Shown here: positions 11,221 through 64,000 of the stretch, in pieces
Layout: the number at the start of each line of letters is the position of its first letter
Position numbering within the stretch: the stretch's first letter is position 1
Assembly: GCA_002633005.1 (NCBI GenBank)
Contig: NMRA01000054.1
Location: 574,736-638,735, forward strand
Length of the DNA: 64,000 nucleotides
From: Phoronis australis
Taxonomy: Eukaryota; Animalia; Phoronida
Direction: 5' to 3'
Notes under the pieces: generated by a model
Seen by the model: only the letters and a program-made list of their open reading frames with translations
What the model was told of the DNA's origin: nothing
Databases searched by the model: none
Made by a program: the position numbers and the translations under genes

Positions 11221-11291
11221 CATGGGCCGCGCACCATAGGGGGCGGGGGGGGGTTATACCCCGACTTTTTTCAGTGCTCCGTCGCCCCGTG
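11221..11291. mobile_element. About 70-80 bp CATGGGC-ended mini-MITE family
   Basis: Related copies at about 1838-1890, 34650-34728 and 45050-45112 share the CAGCACTRAAAAAGTGGGGGCTATWGCCCCC core in either orientation. Confidence 0.65.
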
Positions 11292-14479: not shown

Positions 14480-15262
14480 AACCCAATGGATAGGAAAAGA
14501 CGTACCTGTAATTTCTTTTTGAAAAATATCAGATCTCCAGAAAATCACACTTTGCTTAGTCAATCCAGTGGTAAAAGCTGTCAAAACAGTTATATTTAAT
14601 GAATTACAAATGTGACATTGAGCAGAGAGATCATATTCTTTCGATGCAGAAACACCTTTGTTCAACGACTATTCTATGGTTACATTTTTTCAAGGTATGA
14701 ACACGTTATCTACATCATCCTCGCAGTTTGTAGCAAGTTTAGTGATACAGTTTCGCATTTGGGGAAATGATTGCCAACTTATTTATCTCGTAACATGTTC
14801 GAAATAGCCACCAAATCAGGACAAGATTTTCTACCTCAAACAATTTGGTTTTGCCTAAACACAGAACTTCGTTTTATTCTAAGTCCTTCTTTATTCAGGC
14901 CATTCAACAGTGGAACAACTTGCCAAATAGTCTAAAAGAGGCTGACCGTTATGATGATTACAGACACCAACTCGTTAGTTACCTGTGGTCGTCATAGCAG
15001 TCCCTCTTTTTTGTCGCTCCAATGTATATACCATATAAAAGCTTTTATTTATTTATTTTTAATTCAGTCTTTAAAAACCAATTTATAAATACTGTTTAAT
15101 TTAATGTAACTTAATTTATTTATCTATCTTAATTTATTTAATTTAATTTTTGCTACAGAGGACCATGCTGTATATTAGCCTTTGGTTATAGCACGTTTTA
15201 TATCTATAGTATTTTATCCTCTATAAATGAAGTTTATTATTATTATTATTATTATTATTATT
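14480..15262 (+). mobile_element. 5'-truncated CR1/L2-group LINE 3' end
   Basis: LVLPKHRTSFYSKSFFIQAIQQWNNLPNSLKEA is the typical RT ORF C-terminus (SF...WNxLP), followed by an AT-rich 3' UTR and a (TAT)n tail at about 15233-15262. Confidence 0.8.
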
Positions 15263-16527
15263 TAGAAACCGTTGTTGCTGTAACAGTTTTGGGGTCAGTT
15301 ATGACGCCAAGTTTCCTTCATTGGTCCAGGACGTTTTCAAAGAACTTAAAATTAGTCAATTACAAAACACGAGGCCTTTTAAGTTTATCTGAGACATTGA
15401 CCGAGATCTTACACCGCATGAGGTTGCAGGTCTGGCAAGAAAATTACATGTTCTCGTCGTCTCTTATCATTAATTTTCAATCAGTTCCCTATGACAATTA
15501 AAAATGCTTTAAAGACCTACTTGCCTGGAGATCGGCACAAGCCCTTTGCTAAAGAAACCGGAAGTTGGAAGGAGTTTCAACGCTATGAGTCTTATCATAG
15601 ATTTCTTGTTTAATGTGTTGAGGTCCAGATGTTACCGTGGTCACGAAAGCATATGGTACGCGTTGCCTCCACGAAAAAGTACTCGCGTTCAGTTTCTGCA
15701 GCGACCAGCTTGATCATTTCCAATGCGCTATGCAGTCGGCCGGTGATGATTACATATAGAATATAAACCCACACTATAAAATTAGTGTCATCTTATTCCT
15801 TACTCAGATCACAAGTGACTTCAAAATTTGAAATAACCGACAGTTCGTCACGATTGTTCTGGAGTCCAAGCTGCCCACACCAACTTGTAGAACCTGTTCT
15901 CATGGACTTCAACGAACTGTCAGTTCTTTCAAAGCCACGTATAACAAACTGCGAATACTTTTACAGCTGAAGTTATATTCTTGTGATACAACATATAAAG
16001 AAGACCATAAAAGGGCTGAAAGCAACAGCGAGGCAACGAGACAACTCGGTTACGTGGTGCATATATACAAGGAATAACCATTATTTTAACCAAGGGGGGG
16101 GGCAACATCAGTGATATGGAAGTTATTTGCCAGATGCAGTGCTAGGTGATGCACACATCGAGACTAGTGGTACACGCTCATTAACAGAAACACAAATGAA
16201 AAATTTAATCACTATCGATCAAACAACATGCAAGTTAAACATGGCCGGTGAAAAAAGAAAAACTTGTTAGGTGTGGCACTATTAGTGGGTTTTGGCAAAA
16301 AATAAGCGATGTTGTTATCTTTAAATGAGACGCTCCAGCATATGCACAACATGTGGGTCCATAAGAATAAGGATGCTGATGTCTTTAAATCGGATACATG
16401 CCTGCATGACATGTGGATACATCTAAAATAGGGATGTGATGTTATCTTATGTAATCTTTAAAATCCAATATTCCTGAATATGTACAACTGACTTTTATAA
16501 AAATGACTCAATTTGCAAACACAATCA

Positions 16528-16533
16528 TTTATT
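16528..16533 (-). promoter_or_regulatory. Candidate polyadenylation signal for GAS2 (would imply a 3' UTR of about 3 kb)
   Basis: AATAAA on the minus strand at the end of a long U-rich (sense) stretch downstream of the stop codon. Not verified by transcript data. Confidence 0.3.
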
Positions 16534-21545: not shown

Positions 21546-23062
21546 CTGAAAAACAACCAGAGGGTGACAGATTCACGTAGAGCGACTTCGGTGTCTGTAC
21601 AATGTGTCGACCGATCAGTCTAAAAGGTATAGTCCCGGAATTTTTACAACTTCATAATGTTTCTTCTTGTTATGAAACTTAAAGTTGGATCAAAACATAT
21701 TTCACTCACTCACTCACTCACAATATCATGACTTCTATAATATATGAACAAGGAACTAGCCTCTAACATCCTTTTCAGACGTAAGATAATGATTAATCTA
21801 GGAATTCACCGACGAAAAATAAATCAAAACAATACATTTCTTGATATGTTAACCATCATCCAGAAGTTGATTACAGAAAATACTCCAATCACATATTAGC
21901 TCATAATGTCTGCCAGAGTCAATTTTCTGGTTGGGATGTCATAGGAGAAGTTATGAGCATCTTTTTATAGAATGTGATCATATTCAGGTGCCATGCTGAC
22001 CTCTAAAGTGATCCGTCCTTTAGGTAGACAACTTCCAAAATACTAATTTCTGTCTATATTTTACCTCAAGAGTATATCTTTAAAAGCACTTCCCTACAGA
22101 AGATGCATCAAGTGTGTAAAGAATTATCAAAATCCAACCGGCTCTTGACACAAGCACCTATTTGTCCATTGTAACCAACAGAAGACATGACTACCATACA
22201 CATATTAAGTCATTTTTGTCAAGAAAGTGGTAGAACAAGACAGAAAAATACAACTACAATTTTGCACAACCACGCAGCGGAACTTACAGCGACACACACG
22301 ATCAGTGTTGGTAGGTTGTGATAGCTGACCAGTAACGAATCATTGTTAGAACCACACACACACATGAACACTGGACAACGGAAACTACTCAATCACATGC
22401 CGAGGACAAAATTAACATTTGATTTGAAACTGAACTGAACACAACAAATTGTTGAAAGTTACCCTCTCACAGTAGACGACTTTCATTATCTGTGATGAAA
22501 AGACAAAGAATATTGATGTCACTACTAATTCGCATCCCGGGTCACATTTTCATAAACGCATCTTAAAATAAAGTGCACAGTTGTACTGTTCTTCTTACCA
22601 TTTCATTTTTGTTTTAAGTAACCTTGAACCTTGATTTTTTCAGTCCTATTTTTATAACCCTTAAGCAAAAGTGAACCATTTTAAATACAATTCCTTACAG
22701 TATTCAGGAGAATAGTGCATAAAGCATAGGAGAATTCAACATTGACAGTGAAGCTGAGACAAAATTTCAGCTTCAAGTTTCAAAACACTAAAACATGCTG
22801 ATCAGGATTTATTGCACGTAAACAGTAAAACCACTGAGTATAGAAAAGCACAATCTGCAGAAAAGTAAACCCAACATAATGGAAATGGGTAACAGCTTCA
22901 TCTCAGACAAGCTGAAAAACCTTACTAGCCAAATAGATGACATGAAAGAATCATCCATGACACTCAACATGATTCATACTTCCTGGCACCCCTCTCCAGC
23001 ACAAACCTATTGTCTTCTTCAACTAGTACCCTCTGACATCCATCACAAATCTGCAGACATAC

Positions 23063-23517
23063 CTCTTTATCAAGCTGTGACTGCCTTGGTTTAGCAGGTG
23101 ACGGTGGACATCTGCTACCAATAGGAGGAGCTGAAATGATACGTCGTCTCGTCGGCGTACCATTGTCGACGGACTGTGACCTAGTTTTTCGAGGACTCTG
23201 CTGCATCACTTCACTCATGCCACTGCTCATTAAAGAGTCACCAGATCCTTTCCGTTCTGTGATAACACAATCTTTTATAACAAGATCTGTTATACCACAG
23301 TCCTCTGTTACAATGGGATCTTTTATTGTGCGGTCCTTGATGATGACATGTTTTTCCCTAAGGTTTGGAATTATATCGTCAGCATCACCACTCTGCATTT
23401 CATTCTCAATCTCTTTCTCAAGTCGAATCAGCGCCGGTGGTTCAATGCCAAACTTGTACGCCACTCTGGCCAACTCGAGCAGACACAGCACCACCGACCT
23501 CTCTTGTTTGTGGAGAA
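23063..23517 (-). CDS. GAS2: GAS2-family protein, exon 4 (end of CH domain and linker)
   Basis: tttcag acceptor, GTATG donor, 455 nt; [38 protein letters not shown]...LDKE. Confidence 0.95.
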
Positions 23518-23938
23518 CTGAAATGACACATGAACGATGAAGATGCTTCAGAACTGATAAAATAATAGAACCACTATGGAAAATATGCATAAATGATAAC
23601 TTGTAAGTGAGGTATAATACCAGTGAATACATCCCAGCCAATTTTTCGAGATGATATGAGCAACAGTAACCCATTTATACAAAACGTTGCATTTCAGCTG
23701 TATTATGCTGCCGTTTCAAAGGACCCATAGCTGTTAAGTCTAAGGGCTCATATCTTACCACAGAAAAAACAACATTTGTCTGATGCAACGTGCCTGCATT
23801 TTGAAAACCTGTTGATGTCCGTTATTCAGTGGACAAAACTGGTTCTCAAAATGTGATCTATAGAGACTTGCAGGACCTTAACCCAAGCGCAATATACGTA
23901 AGCACAAAGCAGAAGAAAGCCATGTGTATAATGTATAC

Positions 23939-25004: not shown

Positions 25005-25105
25005 CTGTGCTTGACCGGTGGTCCCAATGGCTCACTGGCTAGAGCATCTGCACGGTTAGCAGAAGATCCTGAGTTCAAGTCCTGGTCGGGGCAGAAATCT
25101 TTTCA
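25005..25105 (+). mobile_element. tRNA-derived element (not a functional tRNA)
   Basis: A box TGGCTCACTGG (25028-25038), anticodon-like stem TCTGC/GCAGA, B box GAGTTCAAGTC (25071-25081); poor acceptor stem. Confidence 0.65.
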
Positions 25106-28015: not shown

Positions 28016-28620
28016 CCCCTGCTGGACACCCTGCAGGCAATATGAATTCAATCAGAGGCAAGGCAATTATATTAATCAAATTTGTGATTGTCTTGAAATT
28101 CCAAAATGGGAAATTAGTTGAGTGTGTGCATTCAGGCAAATATCTACAAAACTGTATTGATTTCAACTTAAGTAAAAGTATGTATTTTGTAGAATTTTAT
28201 TTTTTAGTTAGTGTCATTAACAGGATCATGTGATCATGTTATTTAAATAAAATTAAGCAGAAAAGAAGATACATTGATAGAAAAACAAATATATCAATAA
28301 CTTCGTTTGACTAAAATGTTCAAGGTAAAGTTTCAAAAATGCTATTAGTATTCTAAATCATCACTTTTGTTTCATGCAATTTTTGAATTTGTTTCTTAAT
28401 AGTCATAAAAAGTCCTATTTTATTGAGAGCCCCTCATGCATAAGTGGGTCATTTTGGTGCAAGAAGCACAGCATCTGAAAATTTCATATGAATGGGATCA
28501 GCCATTTTTGAGATATGATGTCAGCCATGAGTTTGCCTTTTTTTTCTGGGGTACTACAAAACATTAAGCTCAAATTTCTTTCTTCATAGTGTCAAATTTT
28601 GTCAATCATGAAATAAGCTA

Positions 28621-29603
28621 CCGTAAACGTTCGGGTTAATGCCCATGCTCAGTTAACCGCCCACCCCCTACTTTAGGTGGATTTTCGATTTAACCGCCCA
28701 CTGCTCGGTTAAGCGCCCCCCTGCGATTTTTGAAGATTTCCAATTAAGCGCCCACCTCTCGGTTAAGCGTCCATCCCCGACTTTTAAAGAATGAAGATTT
28801 AGCGCCCAGTGCTAAGGAAACGCGGGATTCCCCGACTTGTAGAAAAAGATCGATGATCACAATGAGCGCAACGACGCCGGGCCTCCGAGACGGTGGTTTA
28901 GCAATTTGAATTGCAATTATAAAAGTAACGAGTTATTGTCTTGGGTCATGGACTCACTTCAAAATATAATACTTGAACGTTTTTGTCACTTTATTTTCTT
29001 CCCATGTTTGCAAAGTTTAAGAACGCCGCCGGCGTCAAAACCTCCGCTTTCAGCGACTNNNNNNNNNNNNNNNNNNNNNNNNNNNNNNNNNNNNNNNNNN
29101 NNNNNNNNNNNNNNNNNNNNNNNNNNNNNNNNNNNNNNNNNNNNNNNNNNNNNNNNNNNNNNNNNNNNNNNNNNGCGCACTTTAGCAAGATGAAATAGTT
29201 GCAATCCAAGTAGAGGCTGCGTGGTCACTGGTCGTCTGCGCTCTACACTACAGGGCTAAATAACAAGACCGCAGGACGGCACGGGGCTATTACTCAGCAA
29301 TTCTGTAAATTTAATAGTGAATGACTAATCTGAGGGCATGATAACCTTTGTTAGGATCATACGCTGTTATGACATTTTTCCCGTCATGTGGCGACGTGAC
29401 GATAACGCTCTTTGAAAAGTGCTACGCGTTCCGAGTAGGCCTACGACTACGTGTGTGGTGTGGGTACTTAGATCACGAGGTAAGATTAACCGCCCAGGGC
29501 GCTTGCCTGTCATAATAAGCGCCCATGTTCGGTTAACCGCCCACCCTAGATTTTTTGGGTTTGCCAATTTAACCGCCCAGGGCGTTAACCCGAACATTTA
29601 CGG
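28621..29603. mobile_element. TA-flanked non-autonomous TIR transposon (Tc1/mariner/pogo-like), family A copy 1, spanning a gap
   Basis: TA-CCGTAAACGTTCGGGTTAATGCCC...GGGCGTTAACCCGAACATTTACGG-TA; highly similar to 51551-53354. Confidence 0.92.
29059..29174. other. Assembly gap
   Basis: Run of N. Confidence 1.
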
Positions 29604-34777: not shown

Positions 34778-37476
34778 TAAACATCGGATTTTTGTCCCGC
34801 GACTTTCGGACAAGGAAAATTTTTAGAAACGGTAATTTGGGATCGACGCAACTCCCGTGTCACTAAAGCGTTCAACGGATGATTACTACTGTATACGGCT
34901 TGAGTCCGAGAATCAGTATAACGGGTTTGTAATTTTTACCTTGTCTTGACGATGTCACGACCGTTACTCGATTGTCTTGCGTTTAGCTTGTGTTTGGCGC
35001 TTTACTGAGCTATGATTAGAATCACCGAGTTCCGCATGACGAAAATTTCTGATGAAAATACAAATAGCAAATACACCGAAGGCTGCAACTTTTTGTTGTA
35101 GCGTAACATGGGCTCTTGTTTAATTAGGCCATGCTGTTCGACTTCCGACTGTGACATTGAACTTGCACGCCTGACATCAACTTGCGTGTTTACGAAACGT
35201 TTTTTATTTTTAAAACGTCCTGGCCTTTGCGAATGCCCTTGTTAGTGGCTAAAATCTCCCGACGATGTGTCCGGATTTTATTCTTGACCTGATGAGAAAT
35301 AATTTTTTGTTTAGGCCCCCATACACAATAGGCCAAAGCTAAGTCTGTCCGTAGGATATCGCGCGTTCAAAGTAGTGTAGATAGTGAACAGCAGCAGCCG
35401 AATGAGACGGAGCCAAAGTAAAGCTGGTTAAAAATCAAACATAGTGCAAGGCCCGGCACTCAGAAAGGGGCGCGGCGCACACGCAATTGTTACAGAGACA
35501 TTGCATCCCTGTNNNNNNNNNNNNNNNNNNNNNNNNNNNNNNNNNNNNNNNNNNNNNNNNNNNNNNNNNNNNNNNNNNNNNNNNNNNNNNNNNNNNNNNN
35601 NNNNNNNNNNNNNNNNNNNNNNNNNNNNNNNNNNNNNNNNNNNNNNNNNNNNNNNNNNNNNNNNNNNNNNNNNNNNNNNNNNNNNNNNNNNNNNNNNNNN
35701 NNNNNNNNNNNNNNNNNNNNNNNNNNNNNNNNNNNNNNNNNNNNNNNNNNNNNNNNNNNNNNNNNNNNNNNNNNNNNNNNNNNNNNNNNNNNNNNNNNNN
35801 NNNNNNNNNNNNNNNNNNNNNNNNNNNNNNNNNNNNNNNNNNNNNNNNNNNNNNNNNNNNNNNNNNNNNNNNNNNNNNNNNNNNNNNNNNNNNNNNNNNN
35901 NNNNNNNNNNNNNNNNNNNNNNNNNNNNNNNNNNNNNNNNNNNNNNNNNNNNNNNNNNNNNNNNNNNNNNNNNNNNNNNNNNNNNNNNNNNNNNNNNNNN
36001 NNNNNNNNNNNNNNNNNNNNNNNNNNNNNNNNNNNNNNNNNNNNNNNNNNNNNNNNNNNNNNNNNNNNNNNNNNNNNNNNNNNNNNNNNNNNNNNNNNNN
36101 NNNNNNNNNNNNNNNNNNNNNNNNNNNNNNNNNNNNNNNNNNNNNNNNNNNNNNNNNNNNNNNNNNNNNNNNNNNNNNNNNNNNNNNNNNNNNNNNNNNN
36201 NNNNNNNNNNNNNNNNNNNNNNNNNNNNNNNNNNNNNNNNNNNNNNNNNNNNNNNNNNNNNNNNNNNNNNNNNNNNNNNNNNNNNNNNNNNNNNNNNNNN
36301 NNNNNNNNNNNNNNNNNNNNNNNNNNNNNNNNNCTTTCTAGACAACGCCCTTATATATACAATATGTTAGTTAATCGTGTCTTCAGCCGCGCAGCACTGT
36401 GCTAGTCGACGCATTCCCATCGTTTGCAGTAGGCGTAAACATGTAGAACGACAGCGCTTCTTCAACAATTCAGACGACTACCAGGACGACAACTGGGGAT
36501 CACGAGTTGATGAGAAACTACTCGTTTTGTTATCATGATTGTCTTTGTAATCTATTTTGGGTAATTGTTCAATCGAAGTTTTCATGTTGAAACTGAGCTT
36601 TCAGTTAATATGGAAATAAACGCGTCAGAGTTAACTTGCGTTTCGGTTTGTAACCAGCAGACAATGCATGGATACGTTTAACAAACATAAATATATGCTA
36701 TGTTCTTGTCATTGTTCGTCACTTTCTTCATTGAACTCGTTCCCACATCCATTACTGTTACGTTTAATGCAAAATTCGTTAAAATTGAGAAAGCGCATGT
36801 TTTGATGGTCAGGAACCCTCTTTGTGCATCGAATACTCAAGTCCAGCTTTTTATTGGGAAACCATGCGTTGACAGCGCAAAGTCGACATTTTTTTGTTGA
36901 GAAAACGCATTTTTACAAAAGAGAATCGGTTGTCTGTAATGTTTCATGTGCGTCAACAACGCAAACCAGACCCACTCATTGAAAAGCCCATATTTGTCAC
37001 CAGGAAGACTCTTCACAACGCAGCCCGATATTTCAAGTGAGATAGCGCAGTTTTGAAAAGATTCCATCACTTGCCGAGAACGGTTTTTGAGCATCGGCAA
37101 TGCAAGCCGAATATTTCATATTGAGAAAGCACATCTTTGAAAAGAAGAACCAACACTAGTTGGGAACGGTCTTTGTGCGTCGACGGCACACATTTCTTAT
37201 TGGGAAAGCCAGATTTTCAAAAATTAATCGCTCAGACCATTTGAGTCTCCTTTACCTGTAATTATACTGCTATCAAATGACCGAGTCAGCAATGTTGATA
37301 CTACGACCGCTCATCGAAATAATGTACACCCACGAAATTCGGACACTAGCGGAAACCCAAATTTGGAGGTCCGCCAAATTCGGCACCACAGAAATGATGT
37401 TTTGCGAGATTCGTCCAAGAATGATTTTTTTCTATTGGAATTAATTTTCGTGTCCGAAAATCATGCGACTTTACCG
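34778..37476. mobile_element. TIR DNA transposon family B copy 1 (left end missing, spans a gap)
   Basis: 34778-34890 matches 58834-58944 and 36335-37220 matches 59016-59905. Right end is GTCCGAAAATCATGCGACTTTACCG-TA. Confidence 0.8.
35513..36333. other. Assembly gap
   Basis: Run of N. Confidence 1.
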
Positions 37477-38543: not shown

Positions 38544-39560
38544 AGCTGCATTTACACGAGAGACAGCTGTCATGGCGCAGCTAACATGACGGCGACATCC
38601 CATTGCTCCCAACTTGTTCGATTCTATAGCCCAACAAGTTGGGAAGTTTACCTCGGTAGCCAATATCTTACATGACTGATTAACTCCGTTCTGGTATTTA
38701 AGGTTGGAGGGCCTGCACTCTTTTGTTTGATAATTGCTCTAATCTCAAATCAGATCGTATCTAGCCTGACTGGGCTGGGCTGATAAAAATGAAAGTTAAG
38801 TTATAACATATTTGAGCTTAAACCAAAAGCAATAGCATTACTGAATTCCTCGTCAAATGCTGATCATGTTCTGTTTTTGAATCACCAAAATCGCCCAACT
38901 ACAACATAAGTTAAGACAGTCTATTCTGTCCAAATGGATTACCAACGCACTGGGTTTGACTGTTCTGAGTACGCGTTCGGTAATAGCGTGCAACCACCAT
39001 ACCTTTCCTTTGAAGCCTGGGACATAATTGGCCTGCTTGTTATCATATGGGACAAAAGACTGTGCTGAGCAGTTAACAAAGAAGTCAGATGTTATCGCAT
39101 GTTCAGCACCCCTCACGTCTGGAAAAGTTACTGAACGACAAAGCGCTGTAATGAACACGGAACGACTGATCAGGTGCATGTGTGTCTGTCAACATAACTG
39201 ACAAGGAGCAAGTTGGCACCGCAGCAACCATTTTTGACACTGGTTTAATAGGTAGAGCGAGTTGCACTAGATCAGTTGCTCCAGTTTCAGCTACACGTCT
39301 AAACACAACTGGGGCAGGGCGGAAAGGGGTCATCTTTGAATGCGCTTGCGCAATAACTAAACATGGGTGATCCACTGACATTCCATGTACTTTGGACGTT
39401 TGCTATTGTTTGTGTAAGCATGTGCAGACAGTCTTCGTGTAAGTGACTCATGTTGATCCAGTTTGCAATCTAATGTTGTGTAAATGTGACTAATAAAAGT
39501 GGAGCAAGTCGCGTTGTGACAACTGACACGGTGACAAATGTCTCTCGTGTAAAAGCGGTT
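38544..39560. mobile_element. PIF/Harbinger-like non-autonomous element
   Basis: TIRs AGCTGCATTTACACGAGAGACA and TGTCTCTCGTGTAAAAGCGGTT, with TAG/TAA flanks. 38560-38778 recurs inverted at about 44097-44310. Confidence 0.7.
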
Positions 39561-43190: not shown

Positions 43191-44473
43191 AATACCCGAT
43201 GTTTTAAAATGTCATTTTCCTCTACTATTACACCGTAGGTAAAGTAGGGAGTACTGCATATGCCATTATACAGGAAATCAGATATAGGTGCTCCGGAGGT
43301 CTGGTGAGGTCACAACATTACCGCGGTAATTTAAGTTGGGTAGACAGGTCCTTCTTCAAAATGGTCGTTGGGAACCAATTTGGGTGAACAACAGCCATTA
43401 CCGTTATTCGGTTCCCAGCAGCCATTTGAAAGAGGGTCCTGTCTATTCGAATTTTACCTCTCACAACTAGTGAATAAGCTCTGTAGATGGTGCTACGCAT
43501 TGTTACTAAGACGCCATATTGTTTATTTACAAATTTTAATTTTACTTTCTCTGCGACCAAGTGCCCGTAAGATTTCCACATCTCTAGCCACATGAGTATC
43601 GTTATTTGTATTGTCCTTTCATTGTTTTATTCTCTTTACTTAATGAAATTTTGCCGGTATTTATACTTCCTTATTGTTTTAGACAATGATCATTCGTCTT
43701 GCTTGTTCAACTAAATAAAATACATTGAAATACTTGCGGGTTATCGTCTATGATCGTCGTCGGTTTACTGAAGCAAAAGCAACAAGTAACGAACTACGAT
43801 GCCATCGGTACCATGTCCATGCCCAGGGTGCACATGTCATGACAGCGTTTTCCCGTTCAGTGACTTTGTCTGTTACGACAACAGGCACGCCAATTATCTA
43901 GCAGGCTTATTACGGACCGTGTGAACACCGTCAAACCCAGAGTGAACTGGTACATTCGGAAAGAATAAATTATCGTAATGTTGGTTGCAGCTGGGCAATT
44001 TTGGTAATTCAAAAACTAAACATGGTCACCATTTGACGAGGATTTCAGAAATCATTTGTTCAAATATGTTATAACTTAACTTTTATTTTTAACAGAGCAG
44101 CCCAGTCAGGCTTGATATGATCTTATTGAAGATTAGAGCAATTATCGAACAAAAGAGAGCTGGCCCTCCAACCGTGAATGCCAGAATGGAGTTAATCAGT
44201 CGTGTAAGATATTGGCTACAGGGGTAAACTTCCCAACTTGTTGTTGGGCTATAGAAGCGAACAAGTTGGGAGCAAGGGGAACAGGCCGTAATGTAACTGC
44301 ATGGGGACAATGACGTGGGATTAGGGATTGAACTACTCAAAATACATGGGTATGTTCAAACAGATCAGAATAAGCTCCTATGGTGTATGGAGGCCCTATA
44401 GCTATGACAGGAATATCTACCGTCTGGCGTCTGTGCTAGTTGGGCTGGCCCAATTCAGATGGCGCAAGCCTAG

Positions 44474-45306
44474 TGTTGTAGAAGTGCTTCCGGTGAATCT
44501 TACGAGCCTCTAGCTACTTGCTAACGGGCAATTGCCTATTACCTGAATGGTTAGCATGCTCGCCGTTTTTATGGGGGTTGGTAGAACTTTCCATTCCCAG
44601 GTCGGGTTAATCTCGGCTATTACTACAACTCATGGTGTAGTCGGCAAACGGATGTGATCTACCCAGTTGCCAACTAGTACTCGCGGAACTCGGATGGTGC
44701 GCACGGATGGTGATGGTAAAAGTTCCATTAGTCAAGGATTTGCATGAGAGACAACCTTGTGTTCACCTAGCTGTGTTGTGGTGGTGTAGTAATAGCCGAG
44801 ATTACCCGACCCGGGGATCGAACCAGCGACCCCCATAAAACCGGCAAGCGTGCTAACCATTCAGCTAACAAAGGCTCATATAATTCACCGGAAGCACATC
44901 TACAACATTCCCCCCTTTCCTACGGAACGGGCACGTGACAGGAAGGTGAACACCAGGAAGCACATCTACAACAGTGGTAAAATGTATCAGGCAAAAGGGA
45001 AATTGATGACCTATGTGAGACAAATCTGGCCGAGGTAATTCACCTTCTTGGTGGCGCACCGTAGGGGGTAGGGAGAGCTTTAGCCCTCCACTTTTTTCAG
45101 TGCTGCCATGGCCTATGGCCGGTGCACCACAGAGGAGCTTGGGGGGGGGGGGGATATTGTAGGTTGTANATTTGCCTATTAGCTGAATGGTTAGCATGAT
45201 CAACGGTTTTATGGTACGGCTCATGCCATGGGGGTCGCTGGTTCGATTCCCGGGTCAGGACAGGTGGTCTCCGCTAATCGGCTAATTACTTATTATTACT
45301 ACACCA
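44474..45306 (+). mobile_element. Miniature LTR retroelement (TRIM) with tRNA-like LTRs, outer copy
   Basis: 5' LTR TGTTGTAG...CTACAAC (44474-44629), PBS TGGTGTAGTCGGCA (44633-44646), second LTR about 45156-45306 after a G-run. Confidence 0.7.
44782..44973 (-). mobile_element. Nested antisense copy of the same TRIM with PPT and 4-bp TSD
   Basis: Full LTR 44907-44782 (A box TAGCTGAATGG, B box GGTTCGATCCC), PPT GGAAAGGGGGGAA at 44920-44908, 5' LTR stub 44973-44951, GTGG duplicated at 44778-44781 and 44974-44977. Confidence 0.8.
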
Positions 45307-48300
45307 GTGTTACGACACTTCTTGGGAATGATTTACAACTAATCCTTGGCTGAAATCATTAGAGATAGAAAATTCACATCACAACAAGTCTGCAAAATAT
45401 TCACAAACCTGGGCACAATTGACAGCCGATTTTTGTGATCCATTACCACTGATTACGAGTTTCCGTCGAGATGTGTGGCAAGCTCGCTGTGTATCTCATA
45501 GGCTACAAGAAAAATGAAGTTTGGTTAAATGTTAAAATTGCACTGTGTTAGGGTACCAGTGTCCACTCTCATGCATGTGATAGTAATTGTACATTCATAC
45601 TAGGCTACGTTTTGATATCTATGTGGCTTCATTAACATACTGCACACTCTATTGTCCTTTACATGACAGTTATGACGCCAGCTTCACGAGAACGAGGTTT
45701 CTTGAAAGTCGTCTGATAATCAGAGCAGCTGCAGGTAAATCAGAAATTAACTGGTTTTACTATGTTTGTTTCTGAAAATTTGGTGTTTGAATGATGCACT
45801 AATGTTTGTCAGTTTTCTTATTTGATTATTTGGTTTGTCTGTGTCGATACCTCGAGCTCGCTGTCGCGCTTCCATTAAGTTTGTCAAATGGACACAGTCG
45901 GCAGTCTTCTTCAAGTTTTTGAAGTTTTGCCAAACTTCCGACTCTGTTATTCCAGGTTATAGTCAGACACCAGTCATAAAACGGTCGTTCACCAATTGCC
46001 TACAATGTTATAAAGACATATCAAAGTTCCATTTTAGTTGTTGTTGGCCACAGTTCATCGTGGGCCTGTCTATGGGGTACTATGAGGCCCATTTAGACCC
46101 GTTTAGCCAGGAACTTGGAAGCAGAGCGCATGGTTTCTGGAACAAACCCCCACGAAATGTTGATCTTTTCATTCGAAGTTTCCTTTAAATATTTGTCTTT
46201 TTTCGCCTCCACATTCGAAATGGGTTGGTTTCTTAATTTTCCTGCTGTAACTCCTATGAAAATTATCTCCCCCGAGGGCCTGATGTACCCTTGATGCGAC
46301 TAATCTAATGTGATAAATTATAAATATATACAGCTTTGCTCTGCCACCTATACCTATATGGGTAAAAGACTCGCCAATTAAAGTCTGACAGAAAATTAGT
46401 GCCATTAAAAAGTACACTTGACTGTACTAAACAGTGTTCTACCGTTATTCTGCTGGCTCCTGACTAGTGGAGCTATCTTGTGTCAAAAGCTTGCTGTCAT
46501 CTCCCGAAGCATGTCCCAATAAATGTAGCAAGTGTCATATACGCATGTCATTGAACGTACTGTTTTTCAAGTCAATGACAGAATTTTCTCTGTGACAAAA
46601 TCTAAAAAATTTTGCACGAAATGACGGTTATTAGATTGTTTTTCACTTAACAGCTGTAACGGTCAAGGTGAGTGTGGCTTGACTCCCTGGTTTTTGCATG
46701 CACCCCCGCTGGTTGAATGATGAGTTTCACGTTGAGGATACGAACAGAACTACCTGGGTGGTGTGAAATTTTGAGATCTATGTGAGGTTAACACACATCT
46801 GTTCCTAACTCGTGTATTTTTATGTTAAAATTTTTTATTAAGGCAGCTGGATGGCTACAGGGGATACTACGGTGGAGCCCTTGTCATACTAGTACTCTCA
46901 GTATCAATGTAAATTACTGTATGATAATAATAAGTGGGATATTCCACTAAGCGGGTCTCGAGCTGGCTGTGGTCGTAACCGCTCTTATACGTTATGGTAA
47001 TCATGCATAGTGAGAAGTGATAGAGTATTAGACAGGTAAACAGGAAACGAATTTTTACCCCTGGCGCCGAGATCCGGTAAGGCTAATGAATTTAAGTTGA
47101 AACAAGTTAGTTTTTAGACAGAAAAGCCAAGGTACACATGCTAATAATTTGGTAGAATCAGTTTTGCGAATTATTTAATGACAATATGCTGGATATTTTA
47201 CATTGATTTAATTGGAAATGATTCATTTTTTGACATTTCACACAATAACCAGGATATGCTATTATCCACTGTTGCATTAAGTAGGCTGAACTGCACTTAT
47301 TAACTGGCAATAGCAAATCCTGGTAAAAATATGCCTTGTTAGTACTTCTTGTACGCCAACAGAAGATTTTCTGCATATGGTGCTTCACCCTGACTAATCT
47401 ACCAAAATCATGTTGTTTAAGAACCTTTCTTGCGTAGTAGGACACCTTTTGAGGCAATAGATGTTCTAACTCTTAACAAATGCTGTTCAATCAAGATTTT
47501 TTGTGAACATCCTTGCATTTATCAACAACATTTAGGACTGATCCCATTACGTTCTATGTGCTCATGGTCAAACAAATATGTACTAAAAGTGATGGGGACT
47601 GAGATCACTTGTCTGCCAGCCACGGTGAGAGGCTACAGCACAAATGGGGACCTGTCTATGATGGCACTAGGATGGATCATTGTCTGTGCTGGAACCAGCA
47701 AGCGGCGATGGGCTTTAGGTACTAGTGAGGGGTAATCTGAAGCCATTGCTCTTGCCTGTGAGCTCGAACCTCTAGGCTGTTTCCCATAACTGTACCTTTA
47801 CCTGATTGGTGTAACTCGATTCTCTTGGAATTGCTTTGATCTGGCGTTGTCTTCGATTATGGTTGGAATAATGTTGTAAATCCAGCAAATGACTGGCTGC
47901 AGTGTTCGCAAAGGTAATTGTATTGCTGTTGCGTGAGAGCTCACAAACGTTTAGGTTAATGACAATTAAATGTGTGGGTACCTGGCTGGTTTAGGTTCAA
48001 TTCATGGTCATTGGTTGAATTAACTAAACATCACAAATATGGATGCTGTCAAAACGAGCTCTTTGAAGCAAATTAGTTGGTGATTGTTTTATGTATTATC
48101 TAACAGCATGGGCTGCCTCCTTGAGATGGCTGGCAGATCTAGGCATCCTTCCCAATGTCAGTAAGGTGAATGATAGCAAAAGTGTCTGTTGGTGGCACTT
48201 TACTGGAAGTTTGAGTTTCCCTAGAGAACTGCTTGCGACTTTTCTCTAGCTTTTCAGCAGAAATTATAGCAACCAGACTTACTTCAAAGGCAAAAGACAC

Positions 48301-51300: not shown

Positions 51301-51550
51301 AATTGAGTGACTCGTGGCGAAATTGTCTGAACAAGGGAGTATTAGTGTCGACGAAACCAGCGTCTCCCTTAGATGACAATACTCACGCCACCACTTATAA
51401 GACCGAGAACGACCTTGGAGACCAGATTTGCTGCCTTTGGTTAGATTTCGTCCAAAAAAACAGCAGGAACCTGTTTCATGAAATGTGACGTAAGACTTAA
51501 GTTAAAAATTTGGTTTGGTGCTGCATACAACTTTTTCAGAAAGTAAATTA

Positions 51551-53354
51551 CCGTAAACGTTTGGGTTAACGCCCATGCTCAGTTAACCGCCCACCCCCTA
51601 CTTTAGTGGATTTTCGATTTAATCACCCACTGCTCGGTTAAGCGCCCCCCTGCGATTTTTGAAGATTTCCAGTTAAGCGCCCACCTCTCGGTTAAGCGCC
51701 CATCCCCAACTTTTAAAGAATGAAGATTTAGCGCCCAGTGCTAAGGAAACGCGCGATTCCCCGACTTTTAGAAAAAGATCGATGATCACAATGAGCGCAA
51801 CGATGCCGGGCCTCCGAGACGGTGGTTTAGCAATGTGAATTGTAATTATACAAGTAACGAGTTATTGTCTTGGGTCATGGACTCACTTCAAAATATAATA
51901 CTTGAACGTTTTTGTCACTTTATTTTCTTCCCATGTTTGCAAAGTTTAAGAACGCCGCGGCGTCAAAACCTCTGCTTTCAGCGACTTTGTCTGCCGCGCT
52001 GAGTTTTCGTCTGCAGTGCACTTGATAAAACATATATTCGAAAAAATCAGGTAAGAGAAATGAGACAATGGTTAAAAGTATATAGTCACGCCCCTTTCTG
52101 TTACTTAGGACTGTCGCTATTCTCTTTTGATGTGTGACTTTGTAGTGGTGCACGTGCGCAAGTTCCCATACTTTGGAGTGCATGTTACCTTGACACCAAC
52201 ATGTGATTGACAAGTGACTCGCACGTAGGCCCTACACGCGTGCTGAATCCCACCGCTACCTTTGGCCATAAAAAACGAGATGCTTATTGAAAGAGGCCGT
52301 TATATTACTTGACAGCATTTCCAAGTCACGATTGTCAGCCGACTGAGACATTGCTTGCTAACAACGGGACTGAACAGTGCCGCAGTGCGATATTGCAAGT
52401 GATATAAATAGGATAATCTGGACATCTTGCATGAAAAATAAATGTTTTTCCACCACGAAGTTTGGTAAGGTGATTGTTTATGAATTGAAACATCACTGTT
52501 TTGCAGCGTTTTATCACATATTTATGCCGTGGCTCGAAATTTTATTCGTGATTGACGAGTGGCACACAGCCGCTTAACCCCGATTCTTGTCTAGGGCCTA
52601 CTTCTTTGCCGAGCATGTTTGGCGCAACGGCAAGTGAGTAATGCCGGGCAGTCGAGATAAAACAGCAAGCCACAGACCCATACGCTGAAAATATCATTGA
52701 GTCACGGAGTGTTGACTATAAACATCCCAAACACAAAAAAAACATCTGAATTAATGTTTTCAAACTTTTATTACAACCAATTTTAAAACTGCTCTCTGAC
52801 TATGAACTTGGCAGCTAGTATGAGACTGTAACCATAAATTTGATGTCTGCTGTGACCTCTGCAACACGTGAAGCTTGCACGCGCGCACTTTAGCAAGATG
52901 AAATAGTCGCAATCCAAGTAGAGGCTGCGTGGTCACTGGTCGTCTGCAATCTACAGGGCTAAATAACAAGACCGCAGGACGGCACGGGGCTATTACTCAT
53001 CAATTCTGTAAATTTAATAGTGAATAACTAATCTGAGGGCATGATAACCTTTGTTAGGATCATCCGCTGTTATGACATTTTTCCCGTCATGTGGCGACGT
53101 GATGATAACGCTCTTTGAAAAGTGCTACGCGTTCCGAGTAGGCCTACGTGTGTGGTGTGGGTACTTAGATCACGAGGTAAGATTAACCGCCCAGGGCGCT
53201 TGCCTGTCGTAATAATCGCCCATGTTCGATTAACCGCCCACCCTGGATTTTTTGAAGTTTCACGTTTAAGCGCCCATGTCTGGTTAACCGCCCACTCCCG
53301 ATTTTTTGAGTTTGCCAATTTAACCGCCCAGGGCGTTAGCCCGAACGTTTACGG
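51551..53354. mobile_element. Family A copy 2, full length, 1804 bp, no transposase ORF
   Basis: Same TIRs and TA flanks; multiple subterminal TTAA(C/G)CGCCCA motifs at both ends. Confidence 0.93.
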
Positions 53355-58690: not shown

Positions 58691-59910
58691 TGTGGTAGTC
58701 GCGCGATTTTCGGACGGCCCGCCATTTTGGGACAAGAATAAATATTTCTGAAATGAGTTTTTTATGGTCCATGAAATTCGTACGAGGTCCAAAAGCTGTT
58801 TTTCAATGATCCTCGAATTTCAGACAATGTCATAAACATCGGATTTCTGTCCCCCGACTTTCGGACAAGGGGAATTTTAGAACCGCTAATTTTGGATCGA
58901 CGCAACTCTCATGTCACTAAAGCGTTCAATGGATGATTACTACTCTGTAAGGCTTTAGCTGTAAAAAATGGTTGGGTGAATTTGATGTTGGTAGCATTTG
59001 AAATTGCATTCGCATTCTAGACTACGCCCTTCTATATGCAATATGTTAGTTAATCGTGTCTTCAGCTGTGCAGCGCTGTACGAGTCGACACATTCCCATC
59101 GTTTGCAGTAGGCCTAAACATGTAGAACATGTAGTGGTCCCGAGTCCGATGTGCTTCTTCAACAATTCAGATGACTACCAGATCGACAAATGGGGATCAC
59201 GTGTGGATGACAAACTACTCATTTTACTATCATGATTGTCTTTGTAACCTAGTTTGGATAATTGTTCATTCGACGTGTTCATGTTGAAACTAAGCTTTCA
59301 GTTAATATGGAAATAAAGGTGTCAGAGTTAACTTGCGTTTCGGTTTGTAAGTAGCAGATGCATGGATGCGTTTAACAAATATGAATATATACTCTGTTCT
59401 CGTCATTGGTCATCACTTTCTTCATTGCACATCCATTACTGTTATGTTTAACGCAAATTCGTTAAAATTGAGAAAGCGCATGTTTTGATGATCGGGAACC
59501 CTCATTGTGAGTCGAATACGCAAGTTCAGCTTTTTATTGGGAAACCACATTGAAAAAAGTGCTTATCGGGCCACTCTTTGTGGGTTGACAACGCAAACTT
59601 TTTCTGAAAAAATGCATTTTTACAAAAGAGAATCGGTTGTCTGGAACGTTTCATGTGTGTCAACAATGCAAACCAGACCCACTCATAGGAAAGCCCATAT
59701 TTGTCACGAGGAACACTCTTTTTTTCACAACACAGCCCGATATTTCAAGTGTGATAGTGCATTTTTGAAAAAAATTCGCCACTTGCCGTGAAAGGTTTTT
59801 GAGCATCAGCAATGCAAGCCAAATATTTCATATTGAAAAAGCGTACTTGTCGAGAACGTTCTTTGTGCGTCGACAACACACATTTCTTATTGGGAAAGCC
59901 AGTTTTTTAA
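58691..59910. mobile_element. Family B copy 2 (left TIR present, internal deletion, right end missing)
   Basis: Left end GGTAGTCGCGCGATTTTCGGAC approximates the reverse complement of the copy 1 right end. About 1 kb of direct homology to copy 1. Confidence 0.8.
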
Positions 59911-60745
59911 AAAAAGTGTTTTGAAGGTGTTCTCATTTGAGGCGTGGCGAATTGGTGGTGACCTGAGATTTTTACGAAATCTGAAATCTCATTGGTGACC
60001 AGCAGGTTGCCATATCAAGCCCTGTCTATCTGTAGAAGCATAAGCTACCAAAAATCAATTTCATCTTTTTAGTTAGTGTTTTGGCTTTGGATGATGTGTT
60101 TGTAAAGCATTGGCTGATTATTCATTTTATGTGCTTAATTAGTGGAAGTGACAGAAGCTGGAGCAACAACCATTAGTTCTCAATATACAGGGTGTTACAA
60201 CATGGTGCAACACCTTTAAAGAGATTGGTTCACAGCTATTTAGTTGTAGTTATACGCATGTGTTGACTGTTAATAAAGTTTGCTTGTAAACCACATTTCT
60301 TTTTATTTCATACCCTATATTCTATTATTTGTTTAAAACATGCTCCTACTTCCCAAACAAAATTTTGAGAACAGAAAATTTTGAACTTTTCGGCTATCTT
60401 CGGAATCACGTCACATCAGGAACACATCAAGAATTGCTGACCGGATCACTGCCAGAGTCTGTCCATAGGTTTGTTTGGCTTGGACTATCTGGCACAAATG
60501 GAATCTTTGTGTTTGTTAGAAAGCAACTTTTGCCCATTACTTTTCTGAAATGTGACACATATGTACCTGGTCTTGTGTGTTGCCATAAACATTTTACAGT
60601 ACTTAATTAGTAGGGAGGTGACCTGATCATTGCAGTCAGCCTTACTAAGTCCTCAGTGTCCACTGCTGTGTGCCAAGAGAAGTACGTTTTTCAAATGTAG
60701 ACGGATGTTTAGATTTAAACTGGAATAAATATTTAAAGAAGAAGA

Positions 60746-61015: not shown

Positions 61016-63556
61016 AAACTAGTGGGTCTTGAGCTAGTATGAACAACCTAACATTCAAAACAGCGGATAGCATCGACGGACACTGTCGGACAGGATTAGT
61101 GCTAGAAGTAACCAGTAGATTGCTTTTCTTTTGAATTACAGTTTTTGCAACATACCGGTAAGTGTTTGTAGGTGGATGTGCTGAATAGCTTGGTGCTCGT
61201 TACCTGTCTTTGCAATGCATTGAATTTTAGCCTAGTCTATCGCTAGCTGGACTAAATGAACAGTAAGAGTAGGGCTGTCCAACCAATTTTTTTTTCGATT
61301 TGCAAAAATACTTCTATATAATCGGAAAGATAATGCATCCCACTCAATAAAAATTGAAAAATCGGGTTAAGCAGTGCACATTTATTGCAATTTTGATGGA
61401 GAAATTTGGGTCATTTGTTTGGATCTGGTTGCTCATCTTGGACAACAGCAGCATAAGTTACGAGTTTAAAACCATGCATAATTTATTTTCACCAATAATT
61501 TACGATGAAATTTAGTGAGAAAGATGTATACCTACTATTCTGAGCGATTCAATAGTTTTCATTGGATTTCAGCCAAGCAGATGTTACTTATTGAGTGATA
61601 AAAATGCTCACAATTCCCATTGAACTTAGTCTCATTTCCGGCGTCACCGACAACATGGCGACTTATGCTGAACTGAAGGGCATGTTCAATCGGCTAGTTT
61701 GTACTTGATGAAATTTTAACTTTGATACATTTTGATGAAAGCTGCTACAAAAAAGCAACTTTGCACAATGTTTACGTTTTTGTGCAAAAAGTATAAGGAA
61801 TATTCTAATTATTGCATTGTGATTATCCTATTCAGTTGACCATACACTCAGCTTAAAAATACTTGAAAACGTTTTGAATTTGTTTTTTCTTTGAAAGTCA
61901 ATTGCGCTTCAAAGTTTGATTATCTGTCACAACATAATTCATATTTTTCTAAATTTTACGTATGAATCGTTCTTTCAATACATGCATTGTAACTTTTTGC
62001 TTTCTTAATTCAAGTTATCAAGGTCCAAAATGTAAATGCTCTTAATTAGAGTAATAGGCCATGTTAGATTGTGAAGCTTCCAGCCTCCAATCCTTTTTCC
62101 ATGCAACTTCTTATTTTTTCAAATCATGCTTGTCGAATTCTAATGTAAGGAAATACCCGGTCGCCATGGTAATAATTAGGCATAGCCACTTTCACATCAT
62201 GTAAATTTGTCTTGTTGTTGGATAACGTTTGTAATGCTTAAACGTTCTAAAATACCGTGCATTCTAAGTTACTTATTTTGGTAAAAGATTTAACTCACAT
62301 ATAAACTTTAATGTACTGAGATTATTTCAGTTGTGACTTATGTACAGTAGCAGTAACCTTCAACTACCTTGAAAGTCTTTCACTGTAGAAACCAAATATA
62401 ATTCCGACTGAAAGCACTTGATTTTAATTTGATTTCTAGGACTCAGTGACCAAAGCATGATAGAATTAACTTGCCGTAATGAACGACTGAAATAATACGT
62501 TCACTGGCATCTTCAGGTAATATTCATTTGATGCCTTGGGTTTATTATTATTTCAATAGATGAACACATGAATTTAAAAAACCAAGTTCAGAGGACTTCC
62601 ACTTCAAGTGTTCTTGTAATTCTGTCATTGAGATTGCCACCTCTATTCAAATTTCAATTGTATACATGGTTAAATTAAAAGGTATTTCCCTTTCTACTCA
62701 TTGCTGAAAGTGAAAAAAATGAAAACTGCAATATTTTGTATTAGGCTTGATTGTCTGTGATACACTGGTCTTTACATCTCCTTGGCGAAAAACAATTTAA
62801 TTATGCCAACAAATGGAGTTGAAAGGAATTACCAAATGAAGCAAGCAAAATTTTGGAGGGTTGGCTGCTTGTAGCCATTGCAATACACAGTTGTCTTCCT
62901 GGTCTGACATCACAGACGGTTATGTAACCCCATATGCCTGTTCTCAGAATTGTCTGGCTGAAGTCGAAGAAGGTCACTCATAACTGCTGGGCTTTTCTCA
63001 TTAATAACGCTGTGTGGACAAGAACTGCACTGTGCAAAAGATTCACACAGTGCCATTATTTGTTTTGAAAAGCAGTTGTTTTGGTGTGAAACTATGTCTT
63101 TAAGCTGCATTTTGCATTGTTTAGCTGGCAAAATGAAATCTATTTAAGCCTTTTTCTCTCATAAGATATATTTGTTAATATTTCTTACCATGATGGTATT
63201 CTATTTCCATTACAAACAAGAGCAATGAAACTATTGATAGTCACTTGAGAAAATGCTTCACATTTTATTGCACAATTCAAAACCACCAGCTACTTGAGAA
63301 ATTTCTTCACAGGTTTGTTGGAGTTCAGACCAATCCAAACATCGGTTGTTTTTTGGTGGCATTCTCCTTTAACACATGAGGAACCTCTTGTTTTGGCAAA
63401 TTATAAATGAAATACACTCCATAGTTTTGATACACCCTGTTGTGTACTATACTTGGCAATTGGTTTCTTAGCATATGTGCTAATCTGTTTCAGTCAACTT
63501 CATCACTAACTGTATTTGTTTCAATTAACTGCTTGCTAGAGTTAACGAGCTGTTAT

Positions 63557-64000
63557 TACTTGGCGGAATTCTTTGAATTCTGCCAAGTATGTTGGTCTGA
63601 CAGCAAGTTGGCGAAATATATTTCGCCAAGTATGTTGCTCTTCCACTAAGTTTTTTTTTTTCAGACCAACATACTTGGCGGAATTCCCAGAATTCCGCCA
63701 AGTATGTTGGTCTGACGGCAAGTTTTTTTTACTTGGCGGAATTCTTCCGCCAAGTATGTTGGTCTGACAGCAAGTTTTTACTTGGCGGAATTCTTCCGCC
63801 AAGTATGTTTTTACTTGGCGGAATTCTTCGAATTCCGTCAAGTATGTTGCTCTGACAGCAAGTTTTTTACTTGGCGAAATAAATTTCGCCAAGTATGTGG
63901 CTCTTCCACTAAGTTTTTACTTGGCGGAATTCTTCCGCCAAGTATGTTGCTTTGACAGCAAGTTTTTACTTGGCGGAATTCTTCCGCCAAGTATGTTGCT
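63557..64000. repeat. Tandem array of palindromic units (about 50 bp), running off the window
   Basis: About 9 units of TACTTGGCGGAA-loop-TTCCGCCAAGTA separated by TGTTGGTCTGACAGCAAGTTTTT or TGTTGCTCTTCCACTAAGTTTTT linkers. Confidence 0.95.

What the first reader, a model, noticed from the sequence alone, without database searches (positions are those of the whole stretch)
44474..45306. Nested miniature LTR retroelements whose LTRs carry a tRNA-like Pol III cassette
Seen: three copies of an approximately 126-bp unit bounded by TGTTGTAG...CTACA(A/C)CA, with tRNA-type A and B boxes (TAGCTGAATGG and GGTTCGATCCC; degenerate in copy 1). Copy 1 is followed directly by TGGTGTAGTCGGCA. The antisense copy (44907-44782) is preceded by a polypurine tract, and the whole inner element has a GTGG 4-bp duplication. 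Established: TGGCGTAGTCGGCAGG is the complement of the eukaryotic tRNA-Ser 3' end (13/14 match here), and LTR plus PBS plus PPT with no ORF defines a TRIM. Small-RNA-gene-bearing LTRs are known in plant Cassandra elements and, as I recall, in the Helenus group. Inference: this is a protein-free, Pol III-driven LTR parasite mobilised by a Gypsy-type partner, with one copy inserted into another. It would normally be mis-annotated as a SINE and may be a new family for this lineage.
Basis: partly seen in the sequence, partly recalled or inferred. Interest (0 to 1): 0.78.

Follow-up and report, generated by a model that had tools for sequence, protein, structure and literature searches.

The report
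Helenus-type mini-retrotransposon nest
This is a small pile-up of decayed copies of an abundant, gene-less jumping element whose terminal repeats carry tRNA-gene promoter boxes; it is likely copied by RNA polymerase III and likely moved by a Gypsy retrotransposon, and it is a new family of the "Helenus" class described in 2024, not a new kind of element.

Summary
Real, but a known kind. Three LTR copies are present, of 154, 123 and 149 bp rather than 126. Reads from other loci fix both LTR ends, show a tRNA-Ser primer site right after the LTR, and show an LTR–internal–polypurine tract layout. Summed depth suggests roughly thousands of LTRs, mostly solo. The inner antisense insertion has a perfect 4-bp GTGG duplication but keeps only 18 bp of its 5' LTR. 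Copies 1 and 3 enclose two different internal regions, so the "outer element" is a composite, although its corrected flanks match 3 of 4 (CTAG/CCAG). The family meets every tested sequence criterion of animal Helenus (Kojima 2024); its LTR and primer-site motifs were not found in that paper's data. Pol III transcription and a Gypsy partner are untested; RNA-seq shows only passenger transcription. One unreported detail: a double-hairpin/palindrome just 5' of box A matches, by eye, 49 of 76 published non-wasp animal Helenus LTRs. The scan has noted Helenus-type TRIMs before in at least 8 other genomes.

The parts
44470..44473 (+). Left flank CTAG; candidate target-site duplication of the composite outer element (partner CCAG)
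   Evidence: chance of at least 3/4 is 0.06
44474..44627 (+). LTR copy 1 (154 bp, long form, TG...CA); box A and box B damaged
   Evidence: other copies carry the intact box A base at 44542
44511..44543 (+). Double-hairpin motif 5' of box A, with the perfect palindrome GGCAATTGCC at 44527-44536
   Evidence: fold; self-duplex -21.6 kcal/mol; carried by many other genomic copies (loose ends at 44868: 36-51 contigs, 54-91 reads); similar by eye to published Helenus LTRs
44633..44646 (+). Primer-binding site complementary to the tRNA-Ser 3' end (13/14, the mismatch a G.U wobble)
   Evidence: most reads of other copies have the perfect base at 44636
44628..44780 (+). Internal region, long type; lacks its own purine tract and 3' LTR
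   Evidence: contigs of other loci join it to an LTR end and to the purine-tract segment (joints 44707/44785 and 44768/44932)
44781..44784 (+). GTGG target-site duplication, left, of the inner insertion
44785..44907 (-). LTR copy 2 (123 bp; 3' LTR of the inner element). Box A 44867-44857, T4 run 44840-44837, box B 44824-44814. Lacks the palindrome motif
   Evidence: T8-to-T54 distance 45, against 46 in the Rfam tRNA hit of this window
44908..44921 (-). Polypurine tract of the inner element
44922..44955 (-). 3' remnant of the inner element's internal region
   Evidence: (I7)
44956..44973 (-). 18-bp stub of the inner element's 5' LTR, 18/18 identical to the start of copy 2
   Evidence: D2; junction covered by read-derived contigs 44884-45104 and 44910-45104
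44974..44977 (+). GTGG target-site duplication, right, of the inner insertion
44978..45050 (+). Second internal region, short type, beginning with a probable decayed primer site (about 44983-44993)
   Evidence: 44995-45022 matches the loose end at 44958 in other copies at 25 of 28 letters with one 2-nt gap, by eye; aligns to the primer-site end of the first internal region, 34 of 2000 shuffles as good
45051..45130 (.). Unrelated 80-bp MITE-like insertion with 11-bp terminal inverted repeats (10/11)
   Evidence: high summed depth
45141..45154 (+). Polypurine tract (G13A) before copy 3
45155..45303 (+). LTR copy 3 (149 bp, old; starts TA instead of TG; U3 deletion and three private insertions). 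Box A 45180-45190, box B 45240-45250
   Evidence: low summed depth on its private parts
45304..45307 (+). Right flank CCAG; candidate degenerate target-site duplication
   Evidence: flank junction covered by read-derived contigs

Best explanation
The locus holds decayed copies of an abundant, protein-free LTR retrotransposon (a TRIM) whose LTRs carry tRNA-type box A and box B, a tRNA-Ser primer site and a polypurine tract; it is likely transcribed by RNA polymerase III and likely reverse-transcribed and integrated by a Gypsy-type helper, as proposed for animal Helenus. Shown: fixed TG...CA ends, primer site, purine tract, boxes at tRNA spacing, one perfect 4-bp duplication, high copy number. 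Inferred: Pol III starts about 7 nt before box A in the 5' LTR, reads through the only T4 run (+35) once and stops at it in the 3' LTR, giving an R region of about 35-38 nt. The helper's particle would package the RNA, prime minus strand on host tRNA-Ser and plus strand on the purine tract, and its integrase would leave 4-bp duplications. LTR-LTR recombination would leave mostly solo LTRs. Local history (inferred): an old composite (LTR, long internal, short internal, LTR, probably a tandem of two subfamilies that lost its middle LTR) later received an antisense, internally deleted copy and a MITE.
For: Both LTR ends are fixed while flanks vary, with no tail. Reads leaving a copy-2-type LTR continue into a 2-nt spacer plus primer site in X5 and X6, though at low agreement (0.46, 0.38); most other copies have the perfect Ser primer base (reference oligos in PMC3299991). 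One other locus joins LTR end to internal segment to purine tract (joint 44957 to 44787, 84 letters on the short side, one contig in each of 4 runs of one sample). GTGG duplication, chance 0.005. Box motifs fit the Helenus description TRGCY...YGG and GGTTC; animal Helenus makes 4-bp duplications and shares primer sites with Gypsy. Neither ARAGORN nor Rfam calls a tRNA here. No ORF of 110 aa or more lies on the sense strand; a 129-aa stop-to-stop frame crosses element junctions and is taken as chance. The motif 5' of box A resembles that of about 49 of 76 published non-wasp animal Helenus LTRs, by eye.
Against: No complete two-LTR copy was seen end to end; no genome is held. Only one clean duplication was scored. 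RNA-seq shows no Pol III signature: 447-517 reads per 11-13 million, both directions about equal overall, no pile of starts or ends, 58-62 reads per run reading in from unrelated upstream flanks, and none on this locus's unique stretches. The T4 run between the boxes could stop Pol III early; T4 terminates efficiently in human cells, though read-through is common. No Gypsy partner was identified. Copy 1 and copy 3 differ by 16% plus large indels.
Confidence: 0.8

Rival explanations
1. Same TRIM, but transcribed by Pol II (from U3 or as a passenger); the tRNA-like part is a relic of an old SINE insertion into the LTR.
For: Observed RNA is passenger-like. T4 lies between the boxes. The 19-21-nt box A/D-arm stretch is also the head of an unrelated tRNA-SINE-like repeat of another organism (31 of 35 loci share its body). 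Kojima says Pol III activity of Helenus is unvalidated.
Against: Box A and box B are intact at tRNA spacing in the bulk of copies while the anticodon arm and T stem do not pair (and direct reading), the pattern expected of a kept promoter. Standard RNA-seq is a poor test for short Pol III RNAs.
Confidence: 0.25
2. A tRNA-derived SINE that happens to lie beside primer-like and purine-rich sequence.
For: LTR depth exceeds internal depth some 15-30-fold, so most copies look like dispersed 120-150-bp tRNA-like repeats.
Against: The 5' end lies 40-66 nt upstream of box A, the 3' end is a fixed CTACA without tail, the ends are TG...CA, and primer site and purine tract adjoin the unit at other loci.
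Confidence: 0.03
3. Architecture only: copies 1 and 3 are remnants of two separate insertions and CTAG/CCAG is chance.
For: Two internal regions of different type lie between them; 84% identity and five large indels.
Against: A 3/4 flank match has chance 0.06. Copies 1 and 3 share the long-form sequence 5' of box A and two bases absent from copy 2. Tandem LTR-internal-LTR arrays are common in TRIMs.
Confidence: 0.35
4. A retrozyme-like element that processes its RNA with a ribozyme in the LTR.
For: Conserved hairpins in the LTR; the scan's unreviewed notes report twister-bearing Helenus-like elements in other animals.
Against: Rfam at E up to 10 over 44000-45800 gave 5 chance-level hits and no ribozyme. 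The first hairpin's loop varies freely among published families, unlike ribozyme cores (recalled knowledge).
Confidence: 0.04

Closest known systems
Animal Helenus TRIMs ('TRIMp3'; Kojima 2024, PMC10886601), especially the bivalve, nemertean, coelacanth and fish families. Read: main text parts 1-5 of 6, supplement parts 1, 5, 6, 7, 10, 11 of 11, plus term searches of the whole supplement
   Same: LTR of 123-154 bp with TG...CA ends (bivalve range 104-193); tRNA-like boxes; primer site; purine tract; 4-bp duplication; many solo LTRs; no functional tRNA; double-hairpin motif 5' of box A (by eye).
   Different: Family motifs were not found in the paper's data (0 hits for 4 LTR motifs and for the primer-site motifs; line breaks can hide a hit). 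The Ser primer site differs from the two Ser types in Fig. S2. The only T4 run lies between the boxes, whereas many published LTRs have a T run after box B (by eye). Host phylum unknown.
Cassandra (plants) and Ajax (nemerteans); from PMC10886601 and passages of PMC7215508. The 2008 Cassandra paper was not held
   Same: TRIM with a Pol III-type promoter in each LTR. Cassandra is reported to start in the 5' LTR and stop in the 3' LTR with a short R region, and forms tandem arrays.
   Different: 5S-derived rather than tRNA-derived promoter; Ajax makes 5-bp duplications; Cassandra's Pol III transcription is validated, this family's is not.
biv-TRIM of bivalves (PMC6934838; passages read)
   Same: Animal TRIM with solo repeats, tandem arrays and nested insertions.
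   Different: No canonical primer site was identified in biv-TRIM; no tRNA-like LTR cassette in the passages read.
tRNA-derived SINEs (SINE2)
   Same: tRNA-like head with boxes A and B; a short high-copy dispersed repeat.
   Different: Fixed TG...CA ends, sequence upstream of the tRNA start, no tail, primer site and purine tract.

Membership tests
Helenus (animal) | tRNA-like sequence with box A (TRGCY...YGG) and box B (GGTTC) inside the LTR | tested here: met
   TAGCTGAATGG and GGTTCGA in copies 2 and 3, T8-T54 distance 45 in copy 2; definition
Helenus (animal) | LTRs with TG...CA ends | tested here: met
   Ends fixed by loose ends at 44907 and 44785; copy 3 has a private TA start
Helenus (animal) | Two LTRs flanking a short internal region, total under about 1 kb | tested here: inconclusive
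   No intact copy seen end to end. Junctions LTR-primer site, internal-purine tract-LTR and LTR-internal exist at other loci; the inner element has a stub plus a full LTR. Implied size about 340-480 bp (inference)
Helenus (animal) | Primer site complementary to a tRNA 3' end just after the 5' LTR | tested here: met
   13/14 at 44633-44646 against tRNA-Ser template oligos; perfect base in most reads of other copies
Helenus (animal) | Polypurine tract abutting the 3' LTR | tested here: met
   44921-44908 (-) and 45141-45154 (+)
Helenus (animal) | 4-bp target-site duplication | tested here: met
   1 perfect (GTGG) and 1 imperfect (3/4) of 2 sites examined; no other loci could be scored
Helenus (animal) | No protein coding; no functional tRNA | tested here: met
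Helenus (animal) | Primer site shared with an autonomous Gypsy of the same genome | not testable with these tools
   No genome held; one primer-site match in the window; literature search for a Ser-primed Gypsy with 4-bp duplication gave 0 papers
TRIMp3 (functional sense) | Transcription by RNA polymerase III from the LTR | tested here: inconclusive
   RNA-seq shows no start pile and no consistent strand bias; library type unspecified, poor test
SINE2 | 5' end at the tRNA start; 3' tail with variable-length duplications | tested here: not met
   5' end 40-66 nt upstream of box A; fixed CTACA end
Cassandra / Ajax | 5S rRNA-derived segment in the LTR | tested here: not met
   No 5S match at E up to 10
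Retrozyme | Hammerhead or other ribozyme in the LTR | tested here: not met
   No ribozyme family at E up to 10; an undescribed fold is not excluded

The most novel reading that the evidence does not exclude
The double-hairpin/palindrome that straddles the predicted Pol III start is a conserved, undescribed cis-element of one ancient (or horizontally spread) clade of animal Helenus running from fish and coelacanth to bivalves, nemerteans and this host. Its central letters change while self-complementarity is kept. It pairs the RNA's 5' end with U3 at the 3' end, or two RNAs with each other, so that a Pol III transcript can be dimerised, packaged and strand-transferred by a Gypsy helper.
Probability: 0.3. 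Interest if true: 0.6.

Novelty: new member of a known kind. Interest (0 to 1): 0.33.

Why it matters
As a new Helenus family it adds a primer type and possibly a host lineage, and it warns that thousands of 120-150-bp tRNA-like repeats in this genome are solo LTRs rather than SINEs or tRNA pseudogenes. The shared palindrome, if functional, bears on the open question stated in PMC10886601 of how a TRIM stays dependent on its helper without LTR similarity, and it argues for a common origin of many animal Helenus families rather than repeated births.

Tried and rejected
Whole genome: none held, so no genome-wide count of paired LTRs, duplications or Gypsy partners. Collection scans for relatives: the box A 19-mer gave 35 metagenome loci, none of this family (only 17-25-nt matches; 31 of 35 share a different SINE-like body), and 0 in viral and genome contigs. 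The palindrome motif gave 0 in genome contigs and 2 viral loci; the one read lies inside a long ORF and both are taken as chance. Host phylum: three protein searches, two Atlas searches and one cluster look-up gave no usable taxon; a laminin-G exon and gene fragments split by long repeat-rich DNA point to an animal. Run search: no RNA holder listed; three RNA runs added by species label were laid. The 87-92% 'runs on unlike' share is not used as evidence, because 151-nt reads overrun a 123-bp unit anyway. The X7 strand skew is attributed to one host transcript, because four variants co-occur in about 120-140 reads. Summed depth is used only as an order of magnitude. An inversion of copy 1's own 3' end was rejected as the origin of copy 2 (88.6% identity, different indels, perfect duplication). 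A first idea that the two internal regions are a simple tandem repeat is weak (68 of 2000 shuffles as good). The sigma-70 scan is irrelevant to this host. Earlier-finding searches by sequence and by palindrome words found nothing; same-genome look-ups returned only unrelated LINE notes. Published Helenus sequences were compared by eye and by term search only, so the 49 of 76 count has no alignment behind it. Supplement parts 2-4, 8 and 9 were term-searched but not read.

Full report
Observation. Three related units lie at 44474-44627 (+), 44907-44785 (-) and 45155-45303 (+). They are 154, 123 and 149 bp long and 84-89% identical outside large indels. No further copy lies in the window. A strict box A plus box B pattern matches only copies 2 and 3; 100 Markov simulations gave a mean of 0.03 hits. 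In copy 2 the T8-to-T54 distance is 45, against 46 in the one Rfam tRNA hit of the window. The D stem pairs, but by direct reading the anticodon arm and T stem do not, and neither ARAGORN nor Rfam calls a tRNA at the locus.

True ends. No genome is held, so I laid read-derived contigs of 4 DNA runs of one sample on the region. Loose ends pile up at 44785 (54, 65, 66, 63 contigs) and 44907 (31, 30, 37, 25), with low agreement (0.37-0.42), as expected of many different flanks. The unit therefore runs TGTTGTAG...CTACA, with no tail. Summed depth over copy 2 is 12,000-18,000 in run X1 against about 9 on single-copy flank; in X3 it is 88,000-123,000 against 48. The tool warns that this is no copy number; I read it as roughly thousands. 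Depth on the internal segment next to the purine tract is 15-30 times lower, so most copies are probably solo LTRs.

What the corrected end changes. The inner insertion spans 44785-44973 and is flanked by GTGG at 44781-44784 and 44974-44977 (chance 0.005). It consists of an 18-bp 5' LTR stub identical to the start of copy 2, 34 bp of internal sequence, a 14-nt purine tract and copy 2. Most of its 5' LTR and its primer site are deleted. The stub-flank junction is covered by contigs with 0-1 differences, so it is not an assembly error. The outer flanks become CTAG and CCAG (3 of 4; chance 0.06). Copy 3 has its own purine tract.

Primer site. TGGTGTAGTCGGCA at 44633-44646 matches 13 of 14 letters of the template oligos for the human tRNA-Ser 3' end printed in PMC3299991 (one passage read); the mismatch would be a G.U pair. 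In other copies the perfect base dominates: 16 of 16, 17 of 19 and 27 of 41 reads in three RNA runs, and 300 of 392 depth in DNA. Reads leaving a copy-2-type LTR continue, in the majority letters of X5 and X6, with two bases and then the primer site, although agreement is low (0.46, 0.38). One contig per run joins an LTR end to the internal segment and purine tract, and others join the long internal region to an LTR end and to the purine-tract segment. These four runs are one sample, so they are not independent. No intact two-LTR copy was seen end to end.

The outer element is a composite. Other copies continue beyond 44958 with letters that match 44995-45022 at 25 of 28 positions, by eye. So 44978-45050 is a second, short-type internal region; it begins with a probable decayed primer site (alignment to the first internal region's 5' end, 34 of 2000 shuffles as good). 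An 80-bp MITE-like repeat interrupts it. The order is LTR, primer site, long internal, [antisense insertion], decayed primer site, short internal, MITE, purine tract, LTR. The simplest reading is a tandem of two subfamilies that lost its middle LTR; tandem arrays are reported for LTR-11_DR, Cassandra and biv-TRIM (passages). Two separate insertions remain possible (0.35).

A motif 5' of box A. Copy 1 carries TAGC-n5-GCTA, then the palindrome GGCAATTGCC, just before box A. Many other genomic copies carry it (36-51 contigs; 54-91 reads); copy 2 lacks it, apparently through a deletion between short direct repeats (inference). A perfect 10-bp palindrome is not rare in itself: the window has 80. 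What counts is position and context. By eye, about 49 of the 76 non-wasp animal Helenus LTRs in the supplement of PMC10886601 have the same layout: 2 of 2 coelacanth, 13 of 14 teleost, 31 of 51 bivalve, 3 of 3 nemertean, and none of 3 Lingula, 2 sturgeon-group and 1 ctenophore families. The centre of the palindrome varies (TTAA, AATT, GTAC, TGCA, CATG, GATC) while staying self-complementary. The junction word ctttagc occurs 39 times in the supplement, first in the animal section, and the 29 places shown are all coelacanth, fish or bivalve. The main text has no occurrence of 'palindrom', 'hairpin' or 'inverted repeat', and searches for Helenus, TRIMp3 and related terms found no other paper on these elements in animals (listings). 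This family's junction reads CCTATTAGC, and convergence is not excluded.

Mechanism. Shown: LTR ends, primer site, purine tract, boxes, one 4-bp duplication, high copy number, no coding capacity. From established LTR biology and PMC10886601: tRNA-primed reverse transcription and integrase insertion by a helper; animal Helenus primer sites resemble only Gypsy, and their duplications are 4 bp. Inferred: Pol III starts about 7 nt before box A. The only T4 run in the LTR lies at +35, between the boxes. It would have to be read through in the 5' LTR and used in the 3' LTR, giving a short R region like the 18 nt reported for Cassandra (second-hand). T4 terminates human Pol III efficiently but read-through is common (bioRxiv 10.1101/2025.10.17.683076, passages). 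The predicted start falls inside the palindrome, so the whole motif would be present only near the RNA's 3' end, where it could pair with the 5' end or with a second RNA (self-duplex -21.6 kcal/mol). Palindromes drive Ty1 RNA dimerisation (PMC6844567, abstract); that is an analogy only.

Expression. Three RNA runs with the same species label (18-19% of each read) gave 447, 453 and 517 reads. Overall direction was about even, no place had many starts or ends, 58-62 reads per run entered the LTR from unrelated upstream flanks, and the unique stretches of this locus had none. This is passenger transcription; it neither shows nor excludes Pol III activity.

Comparison and verdict. Every sequence feature that defines animal Helenus and could be scored is met. 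The two-LTR layout is shown only by junctions; Pol III and the helper are untested. Family-specific motifs were not found in the published data, and the Ser primer site differs from the two Ser types in Fig. S2, so this is probably an unlisted family; Repbase and Dfam were not searchable. The host is an animal of undetermined phylum. The scan has 13 earlier Helenus-type notes in at least 8 genomes (unchecked AI notes). Verdict: new member of a known kind, interest 0.33, with the conserved palindrome as the lead worth following.

Noticed in passing
window 25021-25093 (+): tRNA-like sequence (Rfam RF00005, 35.3 bits) not called by ARAGORN, followed by a T5 run; single in the window; no TG...CA pair with a 4-6-bp duplication within about 230 bp. 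tRNA pseudogene or SINE head.
   Followed up: partly
window 45051-45130: 80-bp MITE-like repeat with 11-bp terminal inverted repeats and high summed depth; a related piece lies at 11229-11278. No clear duplication.
   Followed up: partly
window 43927-44294 and 38584-38963: Another repeat family just left of copy 1 (81% identical, inverted); 44100-44293 has the highest summed depth in the laid region.
   Followed up: no
window 36336-37223 / 59015-59913; 28611-29590 / 51541-53289; 63551-64000: Further dispersed repeats (80-96% identical), some with internal tandem units.
   Followed up: no
window 1977-2261 (-) and 23060-23560 (-): Probable exons: a laminin-G domain (Pfam PF13385; NELL-like by recall) and a calponin-homology-like stretch (weak Atlas lead; GAS2-like by recall).
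   Followed up: partly
L001-L035: 31 of 35 metagenome loci hold one tRNA-derived SINE-like repeat of another organism whose head shares the 19-21-nt box A/D-arm with this LTR.
   Followed up: partly
window 45155-45303: Copy 3's insertions look like local templated duplications (for example a 17-bp insert ending in a repeated ATGG), suggesting repair-derived indels after insertion.
   Followed up: no
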